DNA from: an uncultured Candidatus Saccharibacteria bacterium
GTDB taxonomy: Bacteria; Patescibacteriota; Saccharimonadia; Saccharimonadales; JAUPVS01
NCBI GenBank assembly: GCA_964410185.1
Contig: CAYPFM010000002.1
Coordinates: 6,047-70,046, forward strand
Length of the DNA stretch: 64,000 bases
Direction of reading: 5' to 3'
Numbering within the stretch: the stretch's first letter is position 1; each line of letters begins with the position of its first letter. Position numbers and translations under genes: made by a program. This document shows, piece by piece, positions 3,736 to 19,563 of this stretch. The notes beneath the pieces are model-generated. The model was not told where the DNA came from, did not search any database, and saw only the letters and a program-made list of their open reading frames with translations.

Positions 3736-5670
3736 TTAGAGTAGGTTCAGCGGATCCAGGTCATGGGTCCAGTTGGCTGGCAGCAGGGGTAACACCTTCA
3801 GTAACTCCTTGCGATCCTTGGCCTTGATGACCAGTTGCCACTGGTATTTGCCACCGACTTTTTCGTAGAAGCTGGGGGTGGGGCCAATTACCTCGATGCG
3901 GAGGCCACTGGATTGGAGTTTGTCGACCAGTGTTTGGGCGGCAGACCGAGCGCTGGCTGAGGTGGCGCGGGCACAGCTGAGCTTGAGACAGTGATAGAAG
4001 GGCGGGAAGCCGTAGTCTTTTCTTTCTTTGAGTTGGTACTGGTAGAAGTCATCCCAATCTTGGGCGACGGCGGCCTTAATGGGCGGGCTGTCGGGGGCGT
4101 AGCTCTGGATGATGACGGTGCCACCGATGTGGCCGCGGCCGACACGGCCGATGACCTGGGTGAGTAGTTGGTAGGTTTGTTCTTCGGCGGTGTAGTCGGG
4201 GAAGTACAGCCCAGAGTCGGCCACCACTACGCCCACAAGAGTCAATCGGGGCAGGTCGAGCCCTTTAGCTAGCATCTGAGTGCCCACCAAGATGTCGACA
4301 TCACCACTGGTGACGGCCTGATAGTTTTGCTCCAGACTTTCGGATTTGAGGTTGTCGGTGTCGAAGCGTTGGATGCGAGCCTGAGGGAAGGTCTTGGCCA
4401 GTTCGGTGGTCAGTGACTTGGTGCCAACGCCTTTAAAGATCAGGTCGGTGCCCTGACAGACCGGGCAACTGCTGGGAACATTGTCGGTAAAGCCACAGGT
4501 ATGGCAGCGCAGGCGATGGTGGTCACCGTGGAAGGTCAGGGGCAGGTCGCAGTTGGGGCAGGTGGCCTGCCAGCCACAGGTCTGACAGAGTACCAACCGA
4601 GCCGTGCCGCGCCGGTTTAACAAGATGAGAATCTGTTGTTTGGCGTTCAGTGTCTTTTGTACCTCTGTTAGTAGCTTATTCGACAGGTGTGGGTGCGTCG
4701 AAAATTCGTCTCTGTCTTTGAGGTCGACCACGACGATGTTCTTGTCGGTGTGCTCTCCGGCCGGTCGATCAGTTAGGCGGATAATCGGCACCTTCTTGGC
4801 TTCGGCCAAGGCGTATTCACCCACCGGTGGAGTAGCTGTTCCCAATACCAGCCTGGCCTTATGCAGGTGAGCCAGCTGTGAGGCCACGCGCAAAGCCTGG
4901 TAGTACGGCGCCTGTTCCTGTTTGTAGGCGTTGTCGTGGGCTTCGTCGACGACAATCAGGCCGAGGTTCTTAACAGGAGTAAAAAGGGCTGAACGGGGCC
5001 CAATAATGACGACTGGCCCGGTGGCTTGCAAGATCTGCAGCCAAACTGTTCGTCGCTGGGCGGGCGAGAGCTGCGAGTGCACCACAATAACAGGGAAGGC
5101 CAGACTGTCACGAACGCGTTGCTCGAGCTGCGGGGTCAGGCCGATTTCGGGAGTTAACAGCATGACTGAACGCCCTTTTTGCAGCTCCTGCTGGGCCAGC
5201 TCAAGGTATACGCGGGTTTTACCGGTACCGGTGTCACCGTGGAGCAGGTAGGTACCAGGCTGGTTCATCTGCTGGACGGCTGCAGCCTGTTGCGGGATGA
5301 GGGGTGGCATTGGTGTGGGCTGCAGGCTGGCGCTGGGCGGGACGGCGTCGGCGATGTCACGCTTGCGGAGCAAGCTACTGGGTAGCAGGATTTGGGCCAG
5401 TATCCCCAAGGGAGCCGGGTAATAGTGGCGCAACCAATCGAGGAGGGCCAGGGTTTCGGTGGGGACCGGCTGGGTGGTGACGACTTTGTTGATCGGTTTG
5501 GTAGCGAAGGAGGGCTTGCCAACTTCTTTCAGCACAACGCCAACGACTGGCTTATTCCTCAGTGGAACGACCACGATTGAGCCCACTGGCAGCACATTAT
5601 CAGACAGGTAGGTGAGCGGTTCCTTCCCATGAAATTGCTGAGAGCTGACTAAAACCTCGTAGAAGTGCAT
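3736..5670 (-). CDS. priA: Primosomal protein N' (replication restart helicase PriA)
   Basis: Walker A GDTGTGKT, DEAH box VVDEAHD, and a Cys-rich zinc region CQTCGWQATCPNC..CHTCG..CPVC. ATG 5670 is preferred over TTG 5697 (see the TATAAT-N6-ATG feature). Confidence 0.9.
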   Translation of the reverse strand: MHFYEVLVSSQQFHGKEPLTYLSDNVLPVGSIVVVPLRNKPVVGVVLKEVGKPSFATKPINKVVTTQPVPTETLALLDWLRHYYPAPLGILAQILLPSSLLRKRDIADAVPPSASLQPTPMPPLIPQQAAAVQQMNQPGTYLLHGDTGTGKTRVYLELAQQELQKGRSVMLLTPEIGLTPQLEQRVRDSLAFPVIVVHSQLSPAQRRTVWLQILQATGPVVIIGPRSALFTPVKNLGLIVVDEAHDNAYKQEQAPYYQALRVASQLAHLHKARLVLGTATPPVGEYALAEAKKVPIIRLTDRPAGEHTDKNIVVVDLKDRDEFSTHPHLSNKLLTEVQKTLNAKQQILILLNRRGTARLVLCQTCGWQATCPNCDLPLTFHGDHHRLRCHTCGFTDNVPSSCPVCQGTDLIFKGVGTKSLTTELAKTFPQARIQRFDTDNLKSESLEQNYQAVTSGDVDILVGTQMLAKGLDLPRLTLVGVVVADSGLYFPDYTAEEQTYQLLTQVIGRVGRGHIGGTVIIQSYAPDSPPIKAAVAQDWDDFYQYQLKERKDYGFPPFYHCLKLSCARATSASARSAAQTLVDKLQSSGLRIEVIGPTPSFYEKVGGKYQWQLVIKAKDRKELLKVLPLLPANWTHDLDPLNLL

Positions 5671-6597: not shown

Positions 6598-7050
6598 ATG
6601 ACAATAAAAGAGCAGATTGACCAAGACCTAAAGACAGCCATGCTGGCCGGTGATAGCCAGGCAGTATCTGTTTTGCGTGGGCTCAAGGGTGCTATCTTGA
6701 ACGTCGAAATCCAAAAGGGGACGCGCGAGCAGGGGCTGAGTGACGAAGAAGTTATCGCCGTCTTTACCAAGGAAGCCAAGAAGCGCCAAGAGAGTGCCGA
6801 GATGTACAAGCAGGGCAATAGCCCCGACAGGGCCAAGGCCGAAGAAGAGGAGAAGGCAATCATTGATAAATACTTGCCGCAGCAGTTATCTGACGCTGAT
6901 TTGGCTGTAATTGTTGATGAAGCCATTCTGGCAACAGGGGCGGCCGGGCCGCAGGCCATGGGACAGGTGATTGGCGCCGTTAAGGCTAAAACAGCCGGCC
7001 AGGCCGACGGAGGCCGCATCGCAGCGATGGTAAAGGAGAAGTTGGCATGA
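6598..7050 (+). CDS. GatB/YqeY domain-containing protein
   Basis: MTIKEQIDQDLKTAMLAGD..VLRGLKGAILN..YLPQQLSDADL is the typical YqeY pattern. Confidence 0.85.
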   Translation: MTIKEQIDQDLKTAMLAGDSQAVSVLRGLKGAILNVEIQKGTREQGLSDEEVIAVFTKEAKKRQESAEMYKQGNSPDRAKAEEEEKAIIDKYLPQQLSDADLAVIVDEAILATGAAGPQAMGQVIGAVKAKTAGQADGGRIAAMVKEKLA

Positions 7051-7583
7051 TTATCTTTATGGGTGTAGCTGGTAGTGGTAAGAGTTCACAGGGGCGACAA
7101 CTGGCCGACGAACGGGGCTTGCCGTGGCTTTCCACCGGTGAATTCCTGCGCATGATGATTGCCGGCGAAAAGCGCAAGGACATGCTGAACGGTAAGCTGT
7201 TGGGCGACGAAGAAATCATCACCATGGTACAGAAGATCTTCGCGGTCGTCGACACTGACGAAGAGTTCATTCTGGATGGCTTCCCACGCACCGAGGCTCA
7301 GGCCGATTGGTTGCTTAGCCAGGTCAAGTATGGGCAGCTGGATGTGTCGGCGGTGATTCACCTGCAGGCTTCCGAAGAAGTGGTGAGCAAGCGTCTGCTG
7401 AGTCGTGGTCGCCAAGATGACACCGAAGAGGCGATTCGCGAACGTTTTAACGAGTACGAGCAGGCTGTATTGCCAATTTTGGAGCACTTTAAGGCGGCTG
7501 GCATCAAGGTGATTGATATTAATGCCGACCAGCCAGTCGAAGAAGTTCATAAACTGATTGATGAAGCACTGAACCAGGCCTAA
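7047..7583 (+). CDS. adk: Adenylate kinase (short-lid form)
   Basis: P-loop GVAGSGKSS, DGFPRTEAQADWL, and a short lid RGRQDD..IRERF. Its start overlaps the upstream stop (ATGA). Confidence 0.8.
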   Translation: MIIFMGVAGSGKSSQGRQLADERGLPWLSTGEFLRMMIAGEKRKDMLNGKLLGDEEIITMVQKIFAVVDTDEEFILDGFPRTEAQADWLLSQVKYGQLDVSAVIHLQASEEVVSKRLLSRGRQDDTEEAIRERFNEYEQAVLPILEHFKAAGIKVIDINADQPVEEVHKLIDEALNQA

Positions 7584-7589
7584 GTAGGA

Positions 7590-8342
7590 ATGTTTACCAG
7601 AGTTAAGACCCCAGCCGAAATTGCGGCCATGCGCACCAGCGGTCATATGCTGGCCACGGTGTTGCAGTACCTTCGGAAAGAAATAAAAGCCGGCCAGACC
7701 ACCAAAGATTTGGCCAATCTGGCAGCAACGCGCCTAGAGGAACTCGGTGGTAAACCAGCCTTTTTGGGTTACCATGGCTTCCCCGACGTCATCTGTATCT
7801 CTGTTAACGACGAGGTCGTACACGGTATCCCCGGTGACATGGTGCTGAAGAACGGTGACGTGGTTGGTTTAGACTTTGGCGTGGTTTACGACGGTATGAT
7901 CACCGATGGGGCGATTACCGTTATCGTCGGCGGTAAGGCCGACAAGAAGGTCATGGAGTTGGTCCGCGACACCGAAGCCTCGATGCTGACCGGTATCGAA
8001 ACGCTGCGCGACGAAGTGCGCGTTGGTGATATTGGTTTTGCGGTTGAAGCCGTTCTGAACAAGGGTGGTTACGGGATTGTTCGAGATTTGGTTGGTCACG
8101 GTGTTGGTCATCAGTTGCACGAGGACCCCAATATTCCCAACTACGGGCGTCACGGCAATGGCCCAACGCTCCGAGCCGGCATGACGATTGCCATTGAGCC
8201 AATGGCCACCCTTGGCGGTGATGACGTCGTGGTAGCCGACGATGGCTGGACCATTCAGACGCGCGACGGCTCGCTGTCGGCTCACTTTGAGCACACTATC
8301 TTGATTACAAAGGATGGCTACGAAATTTTGACCCAGGTGTAG
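7590..8342 (+). CDS. map: Type I methionine aminopeptidase
   Basis: Metal-ligand context VVHGIPG, DFGVVYDGMITD, GHGVGHQLHE, EPM and EHTILIT. Confidence 0.92.
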   Translation: MFTRVKTPAEIAAMRTSGHMLATVLQYLRKEIKAGQTTKDLANLAATRLEELGGKPAFLGYHGFPDVICISVNDEVVHGIPGDMVLKNGDVVGLDFGVVYDGMITDGAITVIVGGKADKKVMELVRDTEASMLTGIETLRDEVRVGDIGFAVEAVLNKGGYGIVRDLVGHGVGHQLHEDPNIPNYGRHGNGPTLRAGMTIAIEPMATLGGDDVVVADDGWTIQTRDGSLSAHFEHTILITKDGYEILTQV

Positions 8343-8357
8343 GATAAGCGCTATACT
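8328..8357 (+). promoter_or_regulatory. Promoter of ftsA (leaderless arrangement)
   Basis: TTGACC-N18-TATACT lies inside the map 3' end. Exactly 6 nt (GCTTGC) separate the -10 from ATG 8364. Confidence 0.55.
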
Positions 8358-8363
8358 GCTTGC

Positions 8364-9602
8364 ATGCGTGATTCTTCACCGAGCCATTTCATCGGGCTTG
8401 ATATTGGTACCAGCACTGTTCGATGTGTGATTGGTATGCTCGAAGAAGGTGGTCGGCTAGCAGTTATCGGCCATGGCAGCGCCCCCAACATCGGTATGCG
8501 CAAAGGCGCTATCGTTCACATTGATGATGTTATCGAATCGGTGGTGCAAGCTGTAACAGAGGCCGAGCGCCTGTCTGGCATTCAAGTCCACCGGGCCACC
8601 GTTAACATCAATGGCTCACACGTCATGGGGATGAATTCTAAGGGCGTTATTGCCATCAGCGCCGCTAACAGGGAGATTACGGTAGAAGACCGCCTACGGG
8701 TCGAAGAAGCTGCCACAATTGTAAAATTACCGCCTAACAGAGAGATCATTCAGGTCTTTGCCAAGAACTACCGCCTGGACGGCCAGGACAACATCAAGGA
8801 TCCGGTTGGCATGCGTGGCGTTCGCCTTGAGGTGGACACCCATATCGTGACCGCCGCCACCCCTAATATGCGCAGTTTAGACATCGTCCTCGACAAGGCT
8901 CATGTCCAAGCCTCGCACCACACGGTCAGCAGCCTAGCTGCTGCCGAGGCGGTGTTGAACCGCCAACAAAAGGAAGCCGGCACCATTTTGCTCGACATTG
9001 GCGCTGGTACCACCAATCTGGCCGTTATTGAAGACGGTGAGGTCCAGCACGTGGCCGTTATCCCAATCGGGGGTATCCATATTACCAACGATCTGGCAAT
9101 TGGCCTTAAAACCGACCTAGACGTGGCTGAGGCCGTAAAGTTGGAGCATGCCACCCTCGGCAAGCCCAAGAAGTCGGTCGCCAAGGTAACTGTCGACGGT
9201 GTCGAGCACAGTTTTGATAGTGAAGAAGTTCAGATGATCACCGAAGCCCGCGTCGAAGATCTTTTGGAGTACGTCGACAAGGAGCTCAAGAAGATTCAGC
9301 GTTCCCGTAAACTCCCTGGTGGGGTGGTTATTACCGGTGGCACCTCCAAGTTGCCCGGCCTGGCTAGCTTCACCAAAGAAAAACTACAGCTGGCGGCCCG
9401 AATTGGCCAACTCCAAGCTGTTGGCGGGCTCATGGACACGGTTGAAGACCCCAGTTACTACACGGCCGTTGGCCTGATGACCCTGGACATGCTGCTCATG
9501 CCCCTCGGCGACGGTGGTCACCGCCAACTCGGGGAACAGTCCAGCGCCGCCGTTATGGGCTTTTTGGACGGCATTATGCGCCGCATTAAACCAAAGCGTT
9601 AA
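8364..9602 (+). CDS. ftsA: Cell division protein FtsA
   Basis: Actin-fold motifs GLDIGTSTVRCVIG and LLDIGAGTTNLAVIEDG. 412 aa, upstream of ftsZ. Confidence 0.9.
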   Translation: MRDSSPSHFIGLDIGTSTVRCVIGMLEEGGRLAVIGHGSAPNIGMRKGAIVHIDDVIESVVQAVTEAERLSGIQVHRATVNINGSHVMGMNSKGVIAISAANREITVEDRLRVEEAATIVKLPPNREIIQVFAKNYRLDGQDNIKDPVGMRGVRLEVDTHIVTAATPNMRSLDIVLDKAHVQASHHTVSSLAAAEAVLNRQQKEAGTILLDIGAGTTNLAVIEDGEVQHVAVIPIGGIHITNDLAIGLKTDLDVAEAVKLEHATLGKPKKSVAKVTVDGVEHSFDSEEVQMITEARVEDLLEYVDKELKKIQRSRKLPGGVVITGGTSKLPGLASFTKEKLQLAARIGQLQAVGGLMDTVEDPSYYTAVGLMTLDMLLMPLGDGGHRQLGEQSSAAVMGFLDGIMRRIKPKR

Positions 9603-9613
9603 CTGGGACGACC

Positions 9614-9997
9614 ATGAATAAAAAGATTAAAATTGCCTTAATCGAAGATGACCAGGCTATTGTTCAGATGTATACCATGCGCTTTGGCTTTAGCGACGAC
9701 CTCGAGGTCAAAGTGGCCAACGACGGCGCCAGTGGTCTGGAACTGATTAAAAACTACCAGCCAGACGTTATTCTGCTGGATATGATGATGCCGACCATGA
9801 GCGGGGCGGAGATGCTCACGCAATTGCGGGCTCTGCCAAACGGCACCGACTACCGGGTTATTGCTCTGACAAACATGAAAGATGATGACATTATGGCCAG
9901 AATCAACAGATTGGGCGTGCAATATTACCTGGTAAAGGCCGAGATACCACCCGAGCAAATCGAGGCTCATATTCGCGAACTGGCTTCCAAAAACTAA
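9614..9997 (+). CDS. Stand-alone response-regulator receiver domain protein (CheY-like, 127 aa)
   Basis: Contains the acidic pocket IEDD, phospho-acceptor context VILLDMMMP, ALTN and a conserved Lys (YLVKA). No output domain. Confidence 0.85.
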   Translation: MNKKIKIALIEDDQAIVQMYTMRFGFSDDLEVKVANDGASGLELIKNYQPDVILLDMMMPTMSGAEMLTQLRALPNGTDYRVIALTNMKDDDIMARINRLGVQYYLVKAEIPPEQIEAHIRELASKN

Positions 9998-10036
9998 CCC
10001 CTAATCGTCATTGCACAACTTTTGTATCCAAAGCGG

Positions 10037-10065
10037 TTGTTTATATCTGTTATAACTACTATAAT
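10037..10065 (+). promoter_or_regulatory. Promoter of the giant sensor kinase gene
   Basis: TTGTTT-N17-TATAAT. It also contains TCTGTTATAAC (extended -10-like). Confidence 0.5.
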
Positions 10066-10112
10066 TAACCATAGGCGCTTTAGGCGTCGAATCAAACAAA
10101 AAAACCAAAACA

Positions 10113-13100
10113 ATGAGACGCGGCAAAAAACTATTGTCATTCGCGGCCAGTTTACTACTATTGGCTAGTTTGTTGTTGCCTCTTATAACCCCTGGTAAAG
10201 CCCATGCCGATCCCGGCCCCCCAGGTCAGACCAAGTGGTCATCCATACCGATTACTACCTGTCAGCAGCTGCAAGATATTAACAATGATTTAACCGCCAC
10301 CTACACACTGAGCAACAACCTTAACTGTACCGGCTTTGGTTTTATCACTATTGGCGAAGATGGGAGCGGTGTTCCGACCGGGAGTTTTGAGGGTCGTCTA
10401 TATGGGCAAGGGCACACTATTAGCGGGCTGGACGTATCATTGTTCAGATCGGTTGTGTATGGTGTTGTGGCTAATTTGAACTTGTCATCGAGCCTGAGCT
10501 TTAGTGCGAGCCATGAGGTTTCGGGTTTTCTGGCCAAACAAATCAGCGCGGCAGTGGTGAGTGATGTGCATGTTACTGGTGCAGCTACCATGAACTGGCT
10601 CGGCGTTGGTGTTGGTGGTTTGGTCGGGAGCGCTACCAATGTATCCATCATTAGGTCATCGGCAGTGGTGAGCATGGGGGGAACGGCAGGATCGACCGAG
10701 TATGGGGGGCTTGTTCTATACGGGGACAATGTTCAAATACGGGATAGCTATGCGGTAAGCACGATGGCTATAAGCACAATGAGCGTAGAGCACGCCGGTG
10801 GCCTCTTGGTGTATGGTGTCAACGTCAGCATTACTAATTCTTATGCCAGTGGGACGATTGACGTCCCCGGTAATATACACGAAATTGGCGGTCTGGCTTG
10901 GTATAACCAGGGCACGGGCGCACACGTAACCAATAGTTTTAGCACACTTCAGGGGGTGGGCCTGTGTAACGGTGGGCAGAGCTGTACTGGTCTGGTTACG
11001 TTTGCCAATGATAGCTTAGATCTTTCTTCGGATTATTTTGATCAGACGGTCGTGGGGACCAGCCTGTGTACGAGCAGCGTAACCAATACCATCTGTCATC
11101 GCGTTAACACCGACGGCTCTCAGAGTAATTATTTTAACAGTAATTCAACCAACCCACCTCTGAACGGTTGGGATTTTAGCAGTACTTGGGTGACAACGGC
11201 GGGTCTACCAACCCTACGCAGCTTTTCTAATCCCTCACCCCAGCCGGGCCCAGTTGCGCAACTTACCACCAGTATCGGTTCGCCAACCGCTGTTAACTTG
11301 AACTGGGCGTTGCCGGCCAGCACCGGTTCAGCACCATTACTAGCCGAACAGGTTAATTACCAGAAGGTTGGCGAAACAACTTGGCAAAAGGTTTCGGCGA
11401 CGGATATTAATTCCTACTCATCTTCGGCGACTAATTTTTCTGGTACCAGTTTGGCAGTGACCGGTTTGCTGCCCAATACAAGCTATAACTTTGAGGTGGT
11501 TTTGTATAACCAAGACGGTTACTTTTCGACCGCGACTGCCACTGGTGTTACAGCAACGCCAGGCTTCGCCGTCATCAATACCTGCCAACAACTACAAGCT
11601 GTGACAAACGGCTTGTATGATAACTATGAACTAGGGCGAAACATTGACTGTAGCGACTCTATTAACTGGGGTGGTGGGCAGGGTTTTGTGCCCATTGGCT
11701 GTAACCCAGCTGGAGGGGAGGCCTACGGTAACTTCTTTGGTACGTTTGAGGGAAACAACTACACGATTAGTAACATTCACGTTGATGGCGGGTTGATGTG
11801 TAACGCAAAGGCAATCTTTGGTGCCACCAACGATGCGCTGATTCAAGATGTTAACATCGTTAATCCGGTTATTAAGGGAAGCGCGTCGAATAACTATTCA
11901 AACGCGGTGCTGGTGAGTGCCGACAAGGGGAGTACCCTAAGTAATATTCATATTAGCGGTGACGTACTGGGTGACGATAATCTGATCATTGCTGGCTTGG
12001 TAGCCATTACAAGCGGCACGGCAGCGACTAATATCAGCCGAGTAAGCTTTACCGGTAGCATTAACGCACAACTTACTACGGTGGGTGGTTTTGGTGGTTT
12101 GATTGGCTACCAGCAAGCGCCAGTCGTCATCAGCGATAGCTACGCGCAAATTAATATTACTGATGTTAGTAGCTACGCCTACGGTGGCTACATCGGTGGT
12201 TTGGTCGCCTATAGTTCAGCCCCTATTAACGTAACTCATAGCTACGCTTCGCTAAACTTTGATGGCAGTGGTAGCGTGACTGCCGATGGTACTCTGTTGG
12301 CGATAGGGGGGTTGATTGGCTATACGCCCGACACAGCTCCAACTTTAACCGGTAACTTTGCCCGGACCCAGATTGTAGGCTTTAGCGGCAATCCCGTAAG
12401 TTTTGGTGGAATGGTGGGCGTTATCAGTAACTCTAATCCTGGAGGTGGTTCTCCTCCAATCGACTTCAGTGGTAACTACTTTGATGCCGATCTGATTGGA
12501 ACCAATCAATGTGCGGGCAGTTTAGTGGGAGGGGACAGTATCTACGCCCACCCGGCTACCTGTACCGCTATCAGTGGTCAGCCAAACTACTTCAATAATA
12601 ATTCAACTAATCCGCCCCTTGATAGTTGGGATTTTAACAACATCTGGGAGATTACTAGTACGTTACCGGTGTTTGGGCGAAAGGTGCTGACAACTGTAAC
12701 TCCTATTCCTGCCAACCGACTGGTATCAAGAAGGCCCAAGACTGCTAGCCGAACAACCATCCCAGCGCAAACGGTTGCTCCTCAGCCGGTGAACATATCT
12801 ACCCTTCCTCGTGCCGAAGTGCGAGTAACTACTAGTTCAACACCTTCGGCGCCACAGGGTATTATCGCCCAGCTGCGGCGACTGGTGAGCCGCGTGCCAG
12901 CAGTGGTGCTGGTGAACTTCCCATATGCTCTGTTTGGGCTGCTGCTTCTGGCGGCATTAGCATTGCTGATTGAGGTAGCACGCCAAACAAAACGACTGCA
13001 GCATCTGAACGTGTTGTTAGAAAAGCAACGCTCTGTGGCCGAAAAGCGGGACACTTTCTGGCACCTGGCTGCTAATTACTTACGGGCGCCAATTACTCTG

Positions 13101-14240
13101 CTGATGGGTGGCGCCGATTTGTTAGCCCTTAGCAAGCTTGATTCACGCGAGGCACATCAGTTAACAACACTGAGCCAACGGTTACAAACCAAGGTTGCAA
13201 GCATCATGCATCAGATTGAGCACAGTCGTACCTTGCAAAACATTAAAACGCCCGCCGCCGAGAAACCCCATAGGGTATGGCGTTCAGTTGGATTTTGGCT
13301 ACCAGTTGTTACTGTGGCGGTTTTAATGGTTCTAACCGATTATGTGGCTCAATCGTGGCGAGATTTGCACTTGAGCACAATTAGCCTGACGACCCAGGCG
13401 CTGGCCTATTTGCTAGCCGCCCTGGCTCTGTACTGGGTGCTCAGCGCCTTGGGCTTAGTAAGTCGACGTCGCCGCAATGCTGAGCGTTTGCTACAGCAGC
13501 AATCACAGGCACTTGATGCGGCACGCTTGCGCCTCATGCGCCAGACCGCTACCGAGCTCGATGCCGACGTCAATCATCTGCAAACTGTTTTGCTCAATCT
13601 TTCGTCCAACACACAGGCCAAGCCAATCATGCAAGAGGGCGCCAGCCGTCTCCGCCACTTGGTTGATAGCTTCCAGCTATTGATTAGTGCCCAGAACCAT
13701 CGCCTGGGTGGCCTGTCGCCGGCTGGCGCCCACACCAACCTCGACCACGTCCTAAAGTTTAGCTTAGCCGAACTTGAGCCCAAGATTACTGCCAAAAACT
13801 TAACTGTTAAGTTGCCTGCTCAGCAACGCCTACAAGTGCCGGGCAACGCTGATCTTAACAGTCAGGTTGTCAGTAGTATTTTGTCTAACGCCATTGCGTT
13901 TAGTCCATCTGGTAGCACTATTCGCGTACGTGTTGAGCAGACCGATTCGGGCGCCCATTTACAAATTACCGATCACGGTCCAGGCATTACTCCAGCTCAA
14001 CAAGCCCACCTCTTTGAGCCGTTTACTAAAGCCGACGGCCAAACAGGCTTGCAGCTTGACCACGACGGCCTGGGTATTAATCTCTATCTGGATCGCCAAA
14101 TTATGAATTACTTGGGTGGACGCATTGGCGTTGAGAGTACTCCCGGTCAAGGAACGACCGTTGAACTTGTTTGGCCCCAAACCACCGGTTCTGCGGCTCA
14201 TCCGGGCACACTGGTACACCCACAAACATCGGTCGCTTAA
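10113..14240 (+). CDS. Giant sensor histidine kinase-like protein. Order: signal peptide, two GLUG-repeat modules separated by an Fn3-like domain, 3 TM helices, C-terminal HATPase_c.
   Basis: Signal peptide ends AHA. There are repeated GGLVG..I..SYA (GLUG-like) units in two ~370-aa modules; each module starts TCQQLQ and ends NYFN.NSTNPPL..WDF. The ATPase boxes are SNAIAFSP (N), DHGPGI (G1), LFEPF (F) and GLGINL (G2). The HisKA-like segment is FWHLAANYLRAPIT. Confidence 0.8.
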   Translation: MRRGKKLLSFAASLLLLASLLLPLITPGKAHADPGPPGQTKWSSIPITTCQQLQDINNDLTATYTLSNNLNCTGFGFITIGEDGSGVPTGSFEGRLYGQGHTISGLDVSLFRSVVYGVVANLNLSSSLSFSASHEVSGFLAKQISAAVVSDVHVTGAATMNWLGVGVGGLVGSATNVSIIRSSAVVSMGGTAGSTEYGGLVLYGDNVQIRDSYAVSTMAISTMSVEHAGGLLVYGVNVSITNSYASGTIDVPGNIHEIGGLAWYNQGTGAHVTNSFSTLQGVGLCNGGQSCTGLVTFANDSLDLSSDYFDQTVVGTSLCTSSVTNTICHRVNTDGSQSNYFNSNSTNPPLNGWDFSSTWVTTAGLPTLRSFSNPSPQPGPVAQLTTSIGSPTAVNLNWALPASTGSAPLLAEQVNYQKVGETTWQKVSATDINSYSSSATNFSGTSLAVTGLLPNTSYNFEVVLYNQDGYFSTATATGVTATPGFAVINTCQQLQAVTNGLYDNYELGRNIDCSDSINWGGGQGFVPIGCNPAGGEAYGNFFGTFEGNNYTISNIHVDGGLMCNAKAIFGATNDALIQDVNIVNPVIKGSASNNYSNAVLVSADKGSTLSNIHISGDVLGDDNLIIAGLVAITSGTAATNISRVSFTGSINAQLTTVGGFGGLIGYQQAPVVISDSYAQINITDVSSYAYGGYIGGLVAYSSAPINVTHSYASLNFDGSGSVTADGTLLAIGGLIGYTPDTAPTLTGNFARTQIVGFSGNPVSFGGMVGVISNSNPGGGSPPIDFSGNYFDADLIGTNQCAGSLVGGDSIYAHPATCTAISGQPNYFNNNSTNPPLDSWDFNNIWEITSTLPVFGRKVLTTVTPIPANRLVSRRPKTASRTTIPAQTVAPQPVNISTLPRAEVRVTTSSTPSAPQGIIAQLRRLVSRVPAVVLVNFPYALFGLLLLAALALLIEVARQTKRLQHLNVLLEKQRSVAEKRDTFWHLAANYLRAPITLLMGGADLLALSKLDSREAHQLTTLSQRLQTKVASIMHQIEHSRTLQNIKTPAAEKPHRVWRSVGFWLPVVTVAVLMVLTDYVAQSWRDLHLSTISLTTQALAYLLAALALYWVLSALGLVSRRRRNAERLLQQQSQALDAARLRLMRQTATELDADVNHLQTVLLNLSSNTQAKPIMQEGASRLRHLVDSFQLLISAQNHRLGGLSPAGAHTNLDHVLKFSLAELEPKITAKNLTVKLPAQQRLQVPGNADLNSQVVSSILSNAIAFSPSGSTIRVRVEQTDSGAHLQITDHGPGITPAQQAHLFEPFTKADGQTGLQLDHDGLGINLYLDRQIMNYLGGRIGVESTPGQGTTVELVWPQTTGSAAHPGTLVHPQTSVA

Positions 14241-14279
14241 CAGCTGTCCCACACTTCCTCCTCGCCAACTACACCCCAC

Positions 14280-14420
14280 GGCATACCATTTAATCTATTC
14301 TTAATGTTTCAGATTAACTTTGTTAATAGTTAAGAGGTTTTTAATTAAAAACCTCTTAACATTCCTTCAATTATTAAAATACTTAACAAACATTATTAAA
14401 ACCAGATTAAATGGTATGCC
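14280..14420. repeat. 141-bp AT-rich palindromic element with 17-bp perfect terminal inverted repeats and a central 30-bp perfect palindrome
   Basis: The TIRs are GGCATACCATTTAATCT (14280-14296) and AGATTAAATGGTATGCC (14404-14420). The central palindrome TTAAGAGGTTTTTAATTAAAAACCTCTTAA spans 14330-14359. It shares CAGATTAA and TTAATCT..TTCTTA words with the MITE-like family. Confidence 0.65.
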
Positions 14421-14547
14421 AAATGGCATAGCTTGCTGGAAGGAGTGTTGGAGTAGGATTGTGTTGAGCAGGGTGGATACAAAAAATGGGCATCGGCGGC
14501 CGGGCCGGACACAAAATTTGACATGGCTCAATGCGGCCGCAGGTTGG

Positions 14548-14576
14548 TTGAACTCTTTTTTTGGTTGCTGTATACT
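14548..14576 (+). promoter_or_regulatory. Promoter of ftsZ
   Basis: TTGAAC-N17-TATACT, 38 nt upstream of ATG 14615, with GAAGGGG Shine-Dalgarno in between. Confidence 0.55.
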
Positions 14577-14614
14577 CCAAAGAGTAAACTAGAGTTGTAA
14601 GAAGGGGAAAATAC

Positions 14615-15916
14615 ATGCCACAAGTTGCTCCAGCTATCGAGACGTTTGCCCGTATTAAGGTGGTAGGCGTTGGCGGAGCCGGTGGGGCCGCTGTTAACCG
14701 CATGATTGAAGCCGGTGTTGACGGTGTTGAATTCATCGTCATTAATACTGATGCGCAAGCCCTTCATCACTCTAAGGCTCAACATAAAATTCATATTGGC
14801 AAGGAAGCCACTCGTGGCTTAGGGGCAGGTGCTGACCCAAGTATGGGCGAAAAGGCGGCCGAAGAATCTCGCGAAGAGATTACCAAGGCGATTCAAGGGG
14901 CTGACATGGTCTTTGTCACCTTGGGAGCTGGTGGCGGTACTGGTTCGGGCGCTGGTCATATTGTGGCGCAGATTGCTCAACAGAATGGTGCGCTAGTTGT
15001 GGGCTTTGCTACTCGACCATTCGCTTTTGAGGGCGAGAAGCGCCGCCGTAACGCCGACGTTGCCATTGCCAACCTGCGTGGCTCGGTCGACACTTTGATT
15101 ACGATTCCTAATGACCGACTGCTTCAGACTATCGACCGCAGCACGCCGCTGCTAGAGGCCTTTAAGGTTGCCGATGATGTCTTACGACAGGGCGTCCAGG
15201 GTATTTCTGACCTGATTACCGTACACGGCCTGATTAACCTCGACTTTGCCGATGTGAAGACGGTTATGAAGAACGCCGGTTCAGCCCTGATGGGTATTGG
15301 TCGTGCCAGTGGTGAAGACCGGGCTGTGAAGGCGGCGCAACAGGCGATTGAATCACCATTGCTGGAGATTTCGATTGATGGCGCCCGCGGTATTCTGTTT
15401 AACGTTATCGGTGGTAACGATATCTCGATGCACGAAATCAACACCGCTGCCGAGGCGATTACCAATGCTGCTGACCCAGATGCCAACATTATCTTTGGTG
15501 CTACCATCAACCCAGAGGTGGAAGGCGAAATTATTATTACTGTTGTCGCTACCGGCTTTGACGACACCTACTATGCCAATCGGCAGACCCCTAAGAAAGA
15601 TTTGGCTAAGCTGGCCGAAGAAGAGGCCAAGAAAGAAGCCGAAGCTGCCGCCGATCCGCAAGATGTTGAAACCATTAACATGTCGCTTGATGACAGCACG
15701 ACGCTGACTGGAGCCGACGACTTTCACGCTGATCCGTCAGATGTGCCAAACATCTGGACGCTCAACCCCGACGCAGCCGATAAGCACGAGGACGACAAAC
15801 CCGAACTCGCGCCAACTGACACAGAAGAAGAACGAGCCATGGACGAACCATCATTTTTAAAACGTTTACGAAACAAGCGCAAGAACAAGCCCGAAAAAAC
15901 AGATACAAACGACTAG
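14615..15916 (+). CDS. ftsZ: Cell division protein FtsZ
   Basis: Tubulin signature GGGTGSGA, plus NTDAQAL and a C-terminal acidic/basic tail. GAAGGGG Shine-Dalgarno lies upstream. Confidence 0.95.
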
Positions 15917-15954
15917 TTTTGTACTAAATATTACACCAAAGAAGTGCTTGCAAA

Positions 15955-16003
15955 GCACCATAGATAGGGCTATCATTTAAAGTACAAGCGCTATATATGG
16001 TGG
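15955..16003 (+). promoter_or_regulatory. Putative tandem NrdR boxes upstream of nrdR-nrdJ
   Basis: GCACCATAGATAGGGC (15955-70) matches the remembered consensus acaCwAtATaTwGtgt at 11/16 positions, and GCGCTATATATGGTGG (15988-16003) at 12/16. Their centres are ~33 bp apart. Confidence 0.4.
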
Positions 16004-16167
16004 AGGGTACCACTGAAAACGCTCGCACGTTCAGAAACAAACAGTCACAAAAACGAATCGAAACAAGAGAACAATACCGAATAGCTGGATACAAAAGCGT
16101 ATCCAGATTGTCGGGCTCTCTTAGAAACGCTTCGTATAACAGACTGTACATAATAGGAGGGGAGAGC

Positions 16168-16641
16168 ATGAAGTGTAATCAATGCCATCATCCCGATACA
16201 AAAGTAATCGAGTCACGCGACGTGGCTGACGGTAGCGCTATTCGGCGCCGACGCCAGTGCAACCACTGTGATTATCGGTTCACTACCTATGAGCGCCTAG
16301 AACGGCCGCAGCTGATCGTCATTAAGAATGATGGCACCAGACAGCTGTTTAGCCGTGAAAAGCTGCTCAGTGGGTTGTATCGGGCATGTGAAAAGACTCC
16401 TGTCACGAGTGTTCAACTTGAACGAGTAGTCACCGATATCGAAAACCAGCTGTATGCTTGTGGCGAAATCGAGATTTCTTCAACCAAGATTGGAACAGAG
16501 GTGATGGAGCAGCTTGCAGCGCTGAATGAGGTAGCCTACGTCCGTTTTGCGAGTGTTTACCGACGATTTAAAGATATCGCCGGGTTCGAAAAAGAACTTT
16601 CGCAGATCCGTGACATCAAGGCAGCTCAAGTTAAGCAATAA
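16168..16641 (+). CDS. nrdR: Transcriptional repressor NrdR
   Basis: MKCNQCHH...CNHC zinc ribbon followed by an ATP-cone. AGGAGGGGAG lies upstream of ATG 16168. The ORF-track 5' extension was rejected. Confidence 0.9.
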   Translation: MKCNQCHHPDTKVIESRDVADGSAIRRRRQCNHCDYRFTTYERLERPQLIVIKNDGTRQLFSREKLLSGLYRACEKTPVTSVQLERVVTDIENQLYACGEIEISSTKIGTEVMEQLAALNEVAYVRFASVYRRFKDIAGFEKELSQIRDIKAAQVKQ

Positions 16642-16743
16642 GCGCAGGCTCAAGGGTTCAAAAGGGTTCAAACAAAAACATCAAAAAATTAAATACTAAA
16701 ACCTTATGTGTGAGAGCAAGAGGGGTAAAAGGGGATAAAAGAC

Positions 16744-19563
16744 ATGGGACAGACAACTAGTTTAGGAATGCGCCGGCTGTTTACACAGCCAAAAACCAAG
16801 GCTTACGACCAGCTAACATGGGTCAAGCGAGATTCGGTTCTGACTAATCCAATGACCAACAAGGCTGTCTTTGAGCAGTTTGATGTTGAGTTTCCAGAGG
16901 GCTGGTCGCAAAACTCAATTAACATTGTGGCTCAAAAGTACTTTACTGGTACGCCGGGCACCAAAGAGCGTGAAGATTCACTTCGTAAACTGATTGACCG
17001 GGTGGCCGACACGGTTACTCGCCAAGGTCTGCAAGAGGCCTATTTTGAGTCCGAAACAGAGGCCGAAGACTTCCGTGAGGAGCTCAAACTAATTTTGGCG
17101 ACCCAACGTGCCGCCTTTAACTCCCCAGTTTGGTTTAACATTGGCGCCCCCGAACGCTCTCAACAGGCTAGCGCCTGCTTTATTCTTGGTATCGAAGACA
17201 CCATGCAATCAATTCTTAACTGGTATACCGAAGAAGGCATGATCTTTAAGGGTGGTTCGGGTTCCGGCGTGAACTTGAGCGTTATCCGTTCATCAGTTGA
17301 AAAGCTTGGTAAGAGTGCTGGAACGGCCTCTGGTCCACTGAGCTTTATGCGTGGAGCCGATTCATCAGCTGGCGCTATTAAGAGTGGTGGTAAGACCCGT
17401 CGCGCCGCCAAGATGGTAATTTTGAACGCCGATCACCCCGACGTTGAAGAGTTTGTCTGGTGTAAGGCTATCGAAGAGCGTAAAGCCCGTGTGCTCGAGG
17501 CCGCAGGCTATGACATGAGCCTTGATGGTAAAGACATCTACTCGGTTCAATATCAGAATGCCAACAACTCGGTGCGTGTGACTGATGAGTTCATGCAATC
17601 GGTGCTCGATGATGACAGCTGGGATCTTAAGTCCGTTAAGACCGGTGAGACCGTCAAAACCGTGCGAGCCAAAGAGCTCTTCCGCCAGATCAACCAAGCT
17701 GCTTGGGAATGTGCCGACCCCGGTATGCAGTTCGACACCACCATCAACCGCTGGCACACCGCGCCTAACGCTGGTCGCATTAACGCCAGCAACCCTTGTA
17801 GCGAGTACATGCACCTCGATAACTCGGCCTGTAACTTGGCGAGCATCAACCTGTTGAAGTACCTCAAGGATGACTTTAGCTTCGACATCGAAGCCTTCAA
17901 GCACACTGTTGAAGTGATGTTCACCGCTCAAGAAATCTTGGTCGGCTACTCCGAGTACCCAACTGTTTCCATCGGTAAGACCGCCAAGGCCTACCGCGAA
18001 CTCGGTTTGGGTTACGCCAACCTTGGCGCGCTGTTGATGGCCCAAGGTTTGCCATATGACTCCGAAGAAGGCCGCGCTCAAGCTGCTGCTATTACCGCGC
18101 TGATGACCGGTCACGCCTACGCTACCAGCGCTCGCATTGCCCGCCGGGTTGGCCCATTTGCCGGCTTCCGCAAGGACCGCGAGGCCATGCTACGTGTGCT
18201 TAAGATGCACCGCGAAGAGGTTAGCAACATCGATGCCTCATCTGTTAGCGAAGAGCTATTAAGTGCTGCGGCCAGTGCCTGGGATGACGCCGTTGAGCTT
18301 GGCAGCCTGTACGGCGTGCGTAACTCACAAGCCAGCGTTTTGGCCCCAACCGGGACAATTGGCTTAATGATGGACTGCGATACCACCGGTATCGAGCCAG
18401 ACCTCGGCCTGGTTAAGGTCAAGAAGTTGGTCGGTGGTGGCACCATGCACATCGTTAACCAAACCGTGCCACGTGCACTCAAGGCACTGGGCTACGATCG
18501 AGCTCAAGTCGACGAGATTGTTGCCTACATTGATGTCGAAAAAACAATACTTGGGGCACCGCACCTCAAGAAGGAGCATGAAAATGTCTTTGCTTGCGCC
18601 ATGGGTGAGAACTCCATTCACTACATGGGTCACGTCAAGATGATGGCCGCCGTGCAGCCATTCCTCTCTGGTGCCATCAGTAAAACCATTAACATGCCAG
18701 AAGAAGCCACCGTCGAAGACGTTGAGCAACTGCACATCGAATCATGGAAGATGGGCCTCAAGGCTGTGGCCATCTACCGCGACAACTGCAAGGTTGGCCA
18801 GCCATTGTCGATGGGCAAGAAGGAAGGCGCTGTCGAAGACGCCGCCAAGGCTGCTGCCGCTACCGTCGCACCAGCTGAGGTGGTCGAGAGTATGAATGAT
18901 CGCATCATCGTTCGGGGCGCGGTTCGCCGTGAGCTACCGAAGATGCGCACCGCCAAGACCTTCTCCTTCAAGGTTGCGGACAGCAAGGGCTTCATGACGG
19001 TTGGCGAGTTCGAAGACGGCACCGCCGGTGAAATCTTCGTCAACGTCAGCAAACAGGGTTCTACTTTAAGAGGTATTCTGGACGCGTTTGCCATTAGTGT
19101 CAGCCACGGCTTGCAGTTTGGCGTACCGCTGAAGGACTACGTAAAGTCTTTGACCAGCATGTCCTTCGCGCCAGCTGGTATTACAGACGACCCAGACATC
19201 CGTACGGCCTCCTCAATCATCGATTACATCGCAAGACGACTGGCACTAACCTATTTGCCATTCGACGACCGCCTAGAGCTTGGATTAGCCTCAATGGACG
19301 ATATGCCCGACGAGCAGACCAGCCTACTCGGTGATGTGGTCCAGGAAGCCTTTGACGAGCAGCCAGCCACGATGGTGAGTGAAGAACCTCAGATTACGAT
19401 CAAAGAGGTGCGAACTGACCCCGTGGCCGCCATCAAGCAAGAAGTGAAATCACAGTCTGCCGATGACACGGCGCCGATTTGCTTCAACTGTGGCAACCAG
19501 ACGCAGCGCGCGGGAAGCTGCTACGTCTGTAGCTCCTGTGGCTCCACAACGGGCTGTAGCTAA
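16744..19563 (+). CDS. nrdJ: Class II (adenosylcobalamin-dependent) ribonucleotide reductase
   Basis: Active-site NPCSEYMHLDNSACNLASINL, plus a C-terminal Cys-rich zinc-finger tail CFNCGNQ..CYVCSSCG..GCS as in many class II RNRs. Confidence 0.9.
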   Translation: MGQTTSLGMRRLFTQPKTKAYDQLTWVKRDSVLTNPMTNKAVFEQFDVEFPEGWSQNSINIVAQKYFTGTPGTKEREDSLRKLIDRVADTVTRQGLQEAYFESETEAEDFREELKLILATQRAAFNSPVWFNIGAPERSQQASACFILGIEDTMQSILNWYTEEGMIFKGGSGSGVNLSVIRSSVEKLGKSAGTASGPLSFMRGADSSAGAIKSGGKTRRAAKMVILNADHPDVEEFVWCKAIEERKARVLEAAGYDMSLDGKDIYSVQYQNANNSVRVTDEFMQSVLDDDSWDLKSVKTGETVKTVRAKELFRQINQAAWECADPGMQFDTTINRWHTAPNAGRINASNPCSEYMHLDNSACNLASINLLKYLKDDFSFDIEAFKHTVEVMFTAQEILVGYSEYPTVSIGKTAKAYRELGLGYANLGALLMAQGLPYDSEEGRAQAAAITALMTGHAYATSARIARRVGPFAGFRKDREAMLRVLKMHREEVSNIDASSVSEELLSAAASAWDDAVELGSLYGVRNSQASVLAPTGTIGLMMDCDTTGIEPDLGLVKVKKLVGGGTMHIVNQTVPRALKALGYDRAQVDEIVAYIDVEKTILGAPHLKKEHENVFACAMGENSIHYMGHVKMMAAVQPFLSGAISKTINMPEEATVEDVEQLHIESWKMGLKAVAIYRDNCKVGQPLSMGKKEGAVEDAAKAAAATVAPAEVVESMNDRIIVRGAVRRELPKMRTAKTFSFKVADSKGFMTVGEFEDGTAGEIFVNVSKQGSTLRGILDAFAISVSHGLQFGVPLKDYVKSLTSMSFAPAGITDDPDIRTASSIIDYIARRLALTYLPFDDRLELGLASMDDMPDEQTSLLGDVVQEAFDEQPATMVSEEPQITIKEVRTDPVAAIKQEVKSQSADDTAPICFNCGNQTQRAGSCYVCSSCGSTTGCS

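What the first reader, a model, noticed from the sequence alone, without database searches (positions are those of the whole stretch)
8364..15916. Two-component pair (orphan receiver plus 1375-aa GLUG/Fn3 sensor kinase) inserted between ftsA and ftsZ
In most bacteria ftsA and ftsZ are adjacent. Here 5 kb separates them. The insert holds a CheY-like receiver with no output domain (9614-9997) and a very large kinase (10113-14240). About 900 aa of the kinase are predicted to be extracellular: two GLUG-repeat modules, each bounded by TCQQLQ and NYFN.NSTNPPL..WDF, flank an Fn3-like domain. All genes are co-oriented, and separate promoters are predicted for ftsA, the kinase and ftsZ. An adhesin-like ectodomain wired to a single-domain regulator inside the division cluster suggests surface or host contact sensing that acts directly on the divisome by protein-protein interaction rather than by transcription. 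For an episymbiotic reduced bacterium, that would be a plausible way to couple division to host attachment. This is inference only.
Basis: partly seen in the sequence, partly recalled or inferred. Interest (0 to 1): 0.68.

Follow-up and report, generated by a model that had tools for sequence, protein, structure and literature searches.

The report
Sensor kinase pair between ftsA and ftsZ
A two-gene signalling cassette (a stand-alone receiver plus a giant surface-exposed sensor kinase with an odd catalytic core) really does sit between the division genes ftsA and ftsZ in this Saccharibacteria genome, but relatives show it is an old, repeatedly lost passenger at a permissive site and give no evidence that it controls division.

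Summary
ftsA (8364-9602), a 127-aa receiver (9614-9997), a 1375-aa kinase (10113-14240) and ftsZ (14615-15916) are co-oriented. The kinase has a signal peptide, two homologous beta-helix modules around an Fn3 domain, and a membrane-anchored kinase core.

Of 80 Saccharimonadales species loci, 78 of the 79 that reach past ftsA have ftsA and ftsZ 70-350 bp apart. Only one shares the insert. Further insert-bearing contigs all fall in one subgroup (FtsA at least 80% identical), and their kinases are monophyletic. This points to one old insertion followed by about four independent clean losses. Distant cassette relatives lie in unrelated neighbourhoods. The slot behind the kinase holds different cargo in each lineage.

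The unexpected part is the kinase core. The H-box hairpin is separated from the ATPase domain by two membrane helices and a second hairpin. The canonical histidine is Asn, with an invariant His one helical turn upstream. About 360 representatives share the architecture, and most of those inspected keep the canonical His.

Best reading: an accessory envelope or contact sensor whose receiver is probably co-transcribed with ftsA and whose target is unknown.

The parts
8328..8357 (+). promoter-like element upstream of ftsA (TTGACC-18-TATACT)
   Evidence: 10 of 12 consensus matches; a consensus match only
8364..9602 (+). ftsA
   Evidence: TIGR01174 1.5e-99
9614..9997 (+). stand-alone receiver (127 aa). 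E11/D12/D13, D56, T86 and K108 are all present. It starts 11 nt after the ftsA stop
   Evidence: spacing of 0-11 nt in all five lineages inspected
10037..10065 (+). kinase promoter-like element TTGTTT-N17-TATAAT in the receiver-kinase spacer, followed by the conserved CATAGGCG...CG(T/C)C motif
   Evidence: conserved in 7 lineages
10113..14240 (+). 1375-aa sensor kinase (whole gene)
10113..10208 (+). signal peptide (aa 1-32, AHA|D)
   Evidence: read directly; inference
10209..11228 (+). beta-helix module A (aa 33-372; Peptidase_M26_N / GLUG-like)
11229..11558 (+). Fn3 domain (aa 373-482)
11559..12698 (+). beta-helix module B (aa 483-862), homologous to module A
   Evidence: E 3e-33
12699..12893 (+). 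Pro/Thr/Ser-rich stalk (aa 863-927), the least conserved segment (26-67% identity)
12894..12980 (+). membrane helix 1 (aa 928-956)
12981..13220 (+). helical hairpin 1 (DHp-like) with the variant H-box FWHLAANYLRAP at aa 982-993 (13056-13091). N988 is at the canonical His position. H984 is invariant in the subfamily
13287..13460 (+). membrane helices 2 and 3 (aa 1059-1079 and 1092-1116)
13455..13694 (+). helical hairpin 2, joined to the ATPase domain. T1147 is at the His-equivalent position
13731..14186 (+). HATPase_c catalytic domain with N (1254-1264), G1 (1287-1292), F (1300-1304) and G2 (1319-1324) boxes
14280..14420 (.). 141-nt hairpin element, 24% GC. It has perfect 14-nt terminal inverted repeats and a central 32-nt palindrome (14329-14360). 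Probably a terminator/insulator or a small mobile element. It is lineage-specific cargo
   Evidence: (z -10.5)
14507..14519 (+). conserved GGACACAAAATTT motif. It follows ftsA within about 10-160 nt in the genomes without the insert that were read (L002-L006) and marks the downstream edge of the inserted DNA
14548..14576 (+). native ftsZ promoter-like element TTGAAC-N17-TATACT, retained
14615..15916 (+). ftsZ

Best explanation
An accessory two-component cassette was inserted once, long ago, directly behind the ftsA stop codon in an ancestor of one Saccharimonadales subgroup. It has been inherited vertically since then and lost repeatedly. The kinase displays about 895 aa outside the membrane (beta-helix, Fn3, beta-helix on a Pro/Thr-rich stalk). 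It most likely senses a cell-surface or envelope ligand, possibly host-derived. Its core is a variant of an uncharacterised HisKA lineage. In that lineage the H-box hairpin follows membrane helix 1, and two more membrane helices plus a second hairpin separate it from the ATPase domain. I infer that ATP bound by the intact ATPase domain phosphorylates the invariant His984, one helical turn above the canonical position (now Asn988). I further infer that the phosphoryl group passes to Asp56 of the adjacent stand-alone receiver. The receiver has no output domain, so it must act by binding another protein. It is probably co-transcribed with ftsA (0-11 nt spacing); the kinase and ftsZ have their own conserved promoter-like elements. 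The position between ftsA and ftsZ is best explained as a permissive intergenic slot, because ftsZ keeps its own promoter. It is not evidence that the target is the divisome. Shown: gene content, domain anatomy, phylogenetic distribution and motif conservation. Inferred: ligand sensing, His984 as the acceptor, phosphotransfer, and output by protein-protein interaction.
For: Domains and motifs.

Distribution: 78 of 79 informative species loci lack the insert. All kinases located between ftsA and ftsZ are monophyletic (100% bootstrap), with two subclades that mirror the two FtsA clades. Losses are clean, with no receiver or kinase remnants.

Context: distant relatives sit in unrelated neighbourhoods and mostly keep the receiver-kinase pairing. 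The cargo behind the kinase varies between lineages. G+C of the kinase (51%) and receiver (48%) is close to the window's (52%), and the cassette and the slot behind it hold no recognisable mobility gene.

Regulation: the ftsZ promoter and the upstream motif are retained. The kinase promoter-like element is conserved.

Kinase core: AlphaFold pTM 0.64. Foldseek's top hits are HK853, DivL, YycG and CusS. Residues of the N, G1 and G2 boxes are invariant and F-box residues nearly so. FWHLAANYLRAP is invariant in the 27 closest full-length relatives (P0001-P0027) and recurs, with single conservative substitutions in three, in the subfamily representatives. Almost all of the 113 more distant sequences carry xHYLRTP in the same columns. 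One of them, P0102, passes Pfam HisKA at aa 249-302, about 210 aa before its HATPase_c domain.

Receiver: it has the full active-site set.

Selection: purifying selection acts on all parts (dN/dS 0.02-0.11). The ectodomain evolves fastest.
Against: Neither hairpin has a histidine at the canonical position, so ordinary autophosphorylation is not assured. I know of no documented precedent for an acceptor His moved by one helical turn. The ligand and the receiver's target are unknown. The whole genomes of the relatives without the insert could not be searched, so relocation rather than loss is not excluded. Tight ftsA-receiver coupling in every lineage, together with retention of this position over a long time, is also what a functional link to division would produce.
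Confidence: 0.55

Rival explanations
1. The ectodomain senses host or surface contact, and the phosphorylated receiver binds FtsA, FtsZ or another divisome protein directly. Division would then be gated by attachment.
For: The receiver has no output domain, so it must act through protein contacts. It starts 0-11 nt after ftsA in every insert-bearing lineage inspected, so its synthesis is probably tied to ftsA. The position has been kept while the kinase diverged to 43-58% identity. FtsA residue 88, in the SHS2/1C domain, is M or V in insert-bearing members of the clade and N or S in those without it. Precedents from my own knowledge: DivK, a stand-alone receiver that controls the Caulobacter cell cycle by protein binding, and WalK localisation at the septum.
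Against: There were about four independent clean losses among close relatives, and the insert is absent from all 72 informative loci outside the subgroup. The same cassette family occurs in non-division contexts. In those contexts the receiver also follows the upstream gene by only 12-26 nt, so tight spacing is not special to ftsA. FtsA position 88 is hypervariable in outgroups, and M and V also occur there without the insert. The discriminating FtsZ columns lie in the gappy C-terminal linker.
Confidence: 0.13
2. A pseudokinase or phosphatase scaffold. With Asn and Thr at the two His-equivalent positions, the protein does not autophosphorylate. It would instead bind nucleotide and the receiver, as DivL does with Tyr in place of His. 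It could sequester or dephosphorylate a receiver that is phosphorylated by acetyl phosphate or by another kinase.
For: N988 aligns with the GacS His in hairpin 1, and T1147 aligns with it in hairpin 2. No member of the subfamily reaches Pfam HisKA. DivL is among the top fold matches.
Against: His984 is invariant in every subfamily sequence that covers the motif, and it lies on the same helix face as the canonical site. ATP-binding residues are invariant or nearly invariant. The cassette keeps a receiver with a complete phospho-acceptor pocket. The window holds no other kinase or receiver.
Confidence: 0.17
3. A phosphorelay or phosphate-sink component. The receiver would be a Spo0F-like shuttle or a sink that feeds, or competes with, a DNA-binding regulator encoded elsewhere. 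The output would then be transcriptional.
For: The best solved-structure matches are the Spo0A and Spo0F receiver domains. Stand-alone receivers often play this role (my own knowledge).
Against: No Hpt protein or second regulator is present in the 64-kb window or next to any family member inspected. Genomes of this group are very small.
Confidence: 0.1

Closest known systems
Class I (HisKA/HATPase_c) membrane sensor kinases, e.g. Thermotoga HK853-RR468 and WalK/YycG
   Same: An HATPase_c domain with N, G1, F and G2 boxes. A helical hairpin is fused to it. The fold matches HK853, YycG and CusS. A cognate receiver gene is adjacent.
   Different: The H-box hairpin is not the one joined to the ATPase domain: two membrane helices and a second hairpin intervene. 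The canonical His is Asn, with an invariant His four residues upstream. The receiver has no DNA-binding domain.
Uncharacterised kinase lineage with HisKA, two membrane helices, a second hairpin and HATPase_c (e.g. P0102, 620 aa)
   Same: The same membrane and hairpin architecture over the whole 308-aa module: 363 representatives at E <= 1e-3 and 268 at E <= 1e-10.
   Different: Almost all of the 113 more distant sequences inspected keep the canonical xHYLRTP His and have ectodomains of about 200 aa. The window's subfamily has FWHLAANYLRAP and ectodomains of 900 to about 1900 aa. P0102 has no adjacent receiver.
Caulobacter DivJ/PleC-DivK-DivL
   Same: A stand-alone receiver acting in a cell-cycle context. 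A kinase-like partner lacks His at the canonical site. DivL is a top fold match.
   Different: DivL carries Tyr at the site and has PAS domains. There is no sequence-level orthology. DivK is essential and conserved in its clade, whereas this cassette is repeatedly lost. No functional evidence was obtained here.
Streptococcal and Gemella M26 IgA1 proteases and GLUG-motif adhesins (N-terminal beta-helix)
   Same: Ectodomain modules A and B hit Peptidase_M26_N and Glug. The model aligns with IgA1-protease structures 6xja, 7uvk and 7uvl.
   Different: No Pfam match to a peptidase catalytic domain was reported. Here the beta-helix is duplicated around an Fn3 domain and fused to a kinase.

Membership tests
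HisKA-type sensor histidine kinase | Phospho-acceptor His at the conserved H-box position of the DHp helix | tested here: not met
   Hairpin 1 has N988 where GacS and the sister lineage have His. Hairpin 2 has T1147. There is no Pfam HisKA hit even at E <= 10. An invariant His984 lies 4 residues upstream.
HisKA-type sensor histidine kinase | HATPase_c catalytic domain with N, G1, F and G2 boxes | tested here: met
   PF02518 2.2e-20. N345, G375, G377, G405 and G407 of alignment A1 are invariant. Foldseek gives E about 1e-11 to HK853.
HisKA-type sensor histidine kinase | H-box hairpin directly contiguous with the catalytic domain | tested here: not met
   In the model, hairpin 1 (aa 957-1036) is separated from the ATPase domain by membrane helices 2 and 3 and by hairpin 2. 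The canonical relative P0102 shows the same layout: HisKA at 249-302 and HATPase_c at 512-619.
HisKA-type sensor histidine kinase | ATP-dependent autophosphorylation and transfer to a receiver Asp | not testable with these tools
   This needs biochemistry.
CheY-like stand-alone receiver | Acidic pair, phospho-acceptor Asp, and conserved Thr/Ser and Lys; no further domain | tested here: met
   E11/D12/D13, D56, T86 and K108 align with Spo0A D10/D11, D56, T84 and K106. Response_reg covers aa 7-120 of 127.
Conserved division (ftsA-ftsZ) cluster gene | Position in the cluster conserved across related genomes | tested here: not met
   Present in 1 of 79 informative species representatives. It is restricted to one subgroup and lost about four times within it.
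Conserved division (ftsA-ftsZ) cluster gene | Physical or genetic interaction with divisome proteins | not testable with these tools
   No multimer prediction or experiment was available. The co-variation scan was inconclusive.
GLUG / Peptidase_M26_N beta-helix surface module | Profile match and beta-helix fold | tested here: met
   PF05342 scores 33.9 bits against a cut-off of 27.7, and Glug scores 21.7 against 20.5. The model has pTM 0.80 and regular beta strands, and matches 6xja, 7uvk and 7uvl.
Mobile genetic element or genomic island | Integrase or transposase, flanking repeats, and deviant composition | tested here: not met
   No mobility gene was recognised in the cassette or in the slot behind it: the small ORFs there have no Pfam match. 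G+C of the kinase (51%) and receiver (48%) is close to the window's 52%. Only the 141-nt hairpin element is AT-rich and repeat-bounded. Flanking direct repeats were not searched for.

The most novel reading that the evidence does not exclude
A Saccharimonadales lineage has wired a contact-sensing kinase of a previously undescribed type into its division operon. The kinase has a bipartite DHp split by a membrane hairpin, and its phospho-acceptor His is relocated by one helical turn. The stand-alone receiver is co-translated with FtsA and modulates FtsA or FtsZ directly, so an epibiont divides only when attached to its host.
Probability: 0.08. Interest if true: 0.8.

Novelty: new variant of a known kind. 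Interest (0 to 1): 0.4.

Why it matters
How ultra-small epibiotic bacteria couple growth and division to host attachment is an open question, and signalling systems are scarce in their genomes. This locus does not answer that question: the comparative evidence makes a division role unlikely. It does give three concrete leads. First, a rapidly evolving, surface-exposed beta-helix/Fn3 sensor is a candidate host- or envelope-recognition protein. Second, an uncharacterised kinase lineage has its H-box hairpin separated from the ATPase domain by a membrane hairpin. Third, within that lineage a subfamily has replaced the canonical His with Asn and fixed a new His one turn away. If that His is phosphorylated, it would extend the known geometry of histidine-kinase autophosphorylation. 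The ftsA-ftsZ spacer is also identified as a recurrent cargo slot in this group.

Tried and rejected
Remnants of the receiver or kinase in the ftsA-ftsZ spacers of L002-L004: tblastn and blastn found none. Only the native ftsZ promoter region matches.

Mobile-element origin: no mobility gene was recognised in the cassette or behind it, and G+C is normal.

Small ORFs between the kinase and ftsZ (window 14320-14592, the L086/L087 120-aa ORF, the L001 239-aa minus-strand ORF): no Pfam match. The window ORF overlaps the AT-rich hairpin and the ftsZ promoter and is probably spurious.

Rfam on 8000-16800: no hit at E <= 1.

Other two-component genes in the window: none.

Positive selection on the ectodomain: dN/dS is only 0.09-0.11 in the pairs that are not saturated. 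That is faster than FtsZ (0.006-0.017) but still purifying.

Co-variation of FtsA or FtsZ with presence of the insert: 2 and 7 discriminating columns. They are either hypervariable in outgroups (FtsA 88) or lie in gappy linkers.

An early reading that the insert was recent and confined to relatives with FtsA at least 91% identical was dropped. L107 (FtsA 80%) and L109 (87%) also carry it, and the kinase tree shows a single origin.

Literature searches on Saccharibacteria or Patescibacteria with histidine kinase, response regulator, ftsA and ftsZ found nothing on this arrangement.

Cluster look-ups gave no organism names for the wider kinase family.
Full report
OBSERVATION

The order is adk 7047-7583, map 7590-8342, ftsA 8364-9602, a 127-aa Response_reg-only protein 9614-9997, a 1375-aa kinase 10113-14240, ftsZ 14615-15916, nrdR, and a class II ribonucleotide reductase. 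All are on the + strand. The ftsA stop and the ftsZ start are 5012 nt apart.

The kinase translation shows a Sec-type signal peptide. TCQQLQ lies at aa 49 and 490, and NYFNxNSTNPPLxxWDF at aa 339 and 825. The two bounded modules are paralogous (30% identity, E 3e-33). An AlphaFold model of aa 33-482 has pTM 0.80. It is a regular beta-helix followed by an Fn3 domain. The beta-helix aligns with the IgA1-protease structures 6xja, 7uvk and 7uvl, and the Fn3 domain with titin and neogenin Fn3 domains. This agrees with the Pfam hits to Peptidase_M26_N, Glug and fn3. With the first membrane helix at aa 928-956, about 895 residues are predicted to lie outside the cell, carried on a poorly conserved Pro/Thr/Ser stalk.

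ORGANISM AND THE SYNTENY TEST

A scan of 185,579 species-representative genomes with FtsA returned 80 loci, nearly all labelled Saccharimonadales or Saccharibacteria. I mapped the window's proteins onto them.

- Of the 79 loci that extend past ftsA, 78 have ftsA and ftsZ separated by about 70-350 bp, within the same adk-map-ftsA-ftsZ-nrdR-RNR backbone.
- Only L001 (FtsA 91% identical) carries the receiver and kinase.

Searching from the kinase side and reading the encoding contigs found further ftsA-receiver-kinase-ftsZ loci: L081-83, L086, L087/88, L092, L108/109 and L107. Their FtsA proteins are 80-95% identical to the window's.

In the FtsA tree these lineages fall in two sister clades that also contain genomes without the insert. 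L081 pairs with L002 (without) at 84% bootstrap. L107 pairs with L005 (without) at 100%. L003/L004, L006 and L007 also lack it. In a concatenated FtsA+FtsZ+RNR tree the insert-bearing set was never monophyletic (0 of 200 bootstraps).

In the kinase tree, however, all kinases located between ftsA and ftsZ form one clade (100%) relative to the next relatives P0012 and P0020. Its two subclades mirror the two FtsA clades. The simplest history is one insertion before those clades split, vertical descent, and about four independent losses, the exact number depending on a weakly supported rooting. The losses are clean. The spacers of L002-L004 contain no receiver or kinase remnant, only the native ftsZ promoter region. 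Among the unbiased species representatives of this subgroup, 1 of 7 keeps the insert.

THE INSERTION SITE

In every insert-bearing lineage inspected, the receiver starts 0-11 nt after the ftsA stop; the two overlap as ATGA in L001. The native ftsZ promoter-like element (TTGAAC-N17-TATACT) is retained downstream of the insert. So is an upstream G(G/T)ACACAAAA(T)TT motif, which follows ftsA within about 10-160 nt in the genomes without the insert that were read.

The receiver-kinase spacer carries a promoter-like element conserved across seven lineages, TTGnnT-N17-(C)TATAAT, followed by a conserved CATAGGCG...CG(T/C)C motif. The likely transcription units are therefore ftsA plus receiver, kinase alone, and ftsZ alone.

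The space between the kinase stop and the GGACACAAA motif differs in each lineage.

- The window has a 141-nt, 24% GC hairpin element at 14280-14420. It has perfect 14-nt terminal inverted repeats and a 32-nt palindrome. Its fold energy is -48.9 kcal/mol (z -10.5). It is unique among all fetched loci and has no Rfam hit.
- L086, L087 and L092 have an ORF of about 100-120 aa with its own promoter.
- L001 has a 239-aa ORF on the minus strand.
- L081 has nothing.

This is what a permissive cargo slot looks like. Because ftsZ has its own promoter, DNA can be added or removed here without polar damage.

THE CASSETTE ELSEWHERE

Kinases 30-41% identical to the window's lie in unrelated neighbourhoods.

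- L084 and L093-96: LPG_synthase_TM, receiver, kinase.
- L085: Dus, receiver, kinase.
- L091: DUF5677, receiver, kinase.
- L089/90 and L098: glycosyltransferases, then the kinase, with no receiver.
- L110: no receiver nearby.

The unit that travels is the receiver-kinase pair, not an association with division genes. In L084, L085 and L091 the receiver also follows the upstream gene by only 12-26 nt (gene tables). The tight spacing behind ftsA is therefore not special.

THE KINASE CORE

This is the unexpected part. Pfam finds HATPase_c but no HisKA domain, even at E <= 10, and no precomputed HisKA hit exists for any of the 27 close relatives.

An alignment and an AlphaFold model of aa 915-1375 (pLDDT 76, pTM 0.64) give this order:

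- membrane helix 1, running into a helical hairpin (hairpin 1, aa 957-1036);
- membrane helices 2 and 3;
- a second helical hairpin (hairpin 2, aa 1115-1194);
- the ATPase domain.

Foldseek matches the model to the DHp+CA cores of HK853, DivL, YycG and CusS over about 225-250 aligned columns. HMMER alignments to GacS place T1147 of hairpin 2 at the His position. They place N988 of hairpin 1 (ANYLRAP against SHEIRTP) at the His position as well (this second alignment is weak, E 0.25).

A full HMMER scan of 1.84 billion representatives with the 308-aa segment from membrane helix 1 to just before the ATPase domain found 363 relatives at E <= 1e-3, of which 268 are at E <= 1e-10. I extracted the H-box columns from the sequences in hand: the 150 listed representatives plus the relatives, 172 aligned in all.

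- All but two or three of the 113 more distant sequences carry xHYLRTP in hairpin 1.
- One of them, P0102, passes the Pfam HisKA threshold at aa 249-302, about 210 residues before its HATPase_c domain.
- The window's subfamily accounts for 51 of the aligned sequences. All 27 close full-length relatives carry FWHLAANYLRAP unchanged, and three representatives show a single conservative substitution.

Hairpin 1 is therefore the true H-box hairpin of this lineage. Its separation from the ATPase domain by a membrane hairpin is ancestral. The window's subfamily has replaced the canonical His with Asn and fixed a new His four residues (one helical turn) upstream. Residues of the N, G1 and G2 boxes are invariant and F-box residues nearly so.

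The adjacent receiver has the complete E11/D12/D13, D56, T86, K108 set. I therefore consider a working kinase that uses His984 more likely than a pseudokinase. This is inference, and I know of no precedent for it.

EVOLUTIONARY RATES

Between lineages whose FtsA proteins are 91-94% identical, the segments differ as follows.

- Receiver: 81-86% identical.
- Cytoplasmic kinase segments: 57-80%.
- Ectodomain modules: 45-60%.
- Stalk: 26-48%.

Where synonymous sites are not saturated, dN/dS is 0.09-0.11 for the ectodomain, 0.04-0.06 for the cytoplasmic part and 0.006-0.017 for FtsZ. The ectodomain thus evolves fast under overall purifying selection, as expected for an exposed recognition surface.

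MECHANISM AND RIVALS

The best-supported account is an accessory envelope or contact-sensing two-component cassette sitting in a permissive slot. Its receiver is expressed with ftsA and acts on an unknown protein partner (confidence 0.55).

The division-coupling model (0.13) keeps three points in its favour: the receiver has no output domain, it is linked to ftsA expression, and the position has been retained for a long time. Repeated loss, absence outside one subgroup, and non-division contexts of the family all weaken it. A scan for FtsA or FtsZ residues that track presence of the insert found only a hypervariable site (FtsA 88) and positions in gappy linkers.

A DivL-like pseudokinase (0.17) and a phosphorelay or sink role (0.10) remain possible.

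Three literature searches found no description of this arrangement or of this kinase type.

VERDICT

The proposed link to the divisome is unsupported, though not excluded. The arrangement is a clade-restricted, dispensable variant. Interest is 0.40, and the novelty class is a new variant of a known kind.

Noticed in passing
window 14280-14420: A 141-nt, 24% GC hairpin element. It has perfect 14-nt terminal inverted repeats (GGCATACCATTTAA) and a central 32-nt perfect palindrome. The RNA fold energy is -48.9 kcal/mol (z -10.5). It is absent from all related loci and has no Rfam match. It could be a terminator/insulator or a miniature mobile element.
   Followed up: partly
window 14507-14519, and the ftsA-ftsZ spacers of L002-L006, L081, L086, L087, L092 and L107: A conserved G(G/T)ACACAAAA(T)TT motif lies about 30-90 nt upstream of the ftsZ -35 element in every Saccharimonadales locus inspected. 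It is a candidate operator or end-of-ftsA signal.
   Followed up: no
P0096-P0208 (e.g. P0102, locus L111 4001-5863): A sizeable uncharacterised kinase lineage, 363 representatives at 50% clustering. Its HisKA hairpin (xHYLRTP) is separated from HATPase_c by two membrane helices and a second helical hairpin. Sizes range from about 600 aa to more than 4000 aa.
   Followed up: partly
L086 5987-6349, L087 5968-6330, L092 about 4440-4760: A conserved ORF of about 100-120 aa with its own promoter and ribosome-binding site lies between the kinase and ftsZ in three lineages. It has no Pfam match and is absent from the window.
   Followed up: partly
L001 15839-16558 (minus strand): A 239-aa ORF on the opposite strand occupies the same slot between the kinase and ftsZ. 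It has no Pfam match.
   Followed up: partly
window 21215-33754: A 4179-aa ORF. A giant ORF at the corresponding position in L081 (about 3661 aa) has Kelch and FG-GAP beta-propeller hits, so this is probably a giant surface protein.
   Followed up: no
window 15997-16641: The mechanical nrdR ORF has an N-terminal extension of about 57 aa before the Zn-ribbon, and many relatives match only from about residue 55. The true start is probably near 16160.
   Followed up: no
FtsA residue 88 (window about 8625-8627): Within the subgroup, insert-bearing genomes have M or V and genomes without the insert have N or S at this SHS2-domain position. The site is hypervariable in outgroups, so the association is probably phylogenetic noise.
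   Followed up: partly
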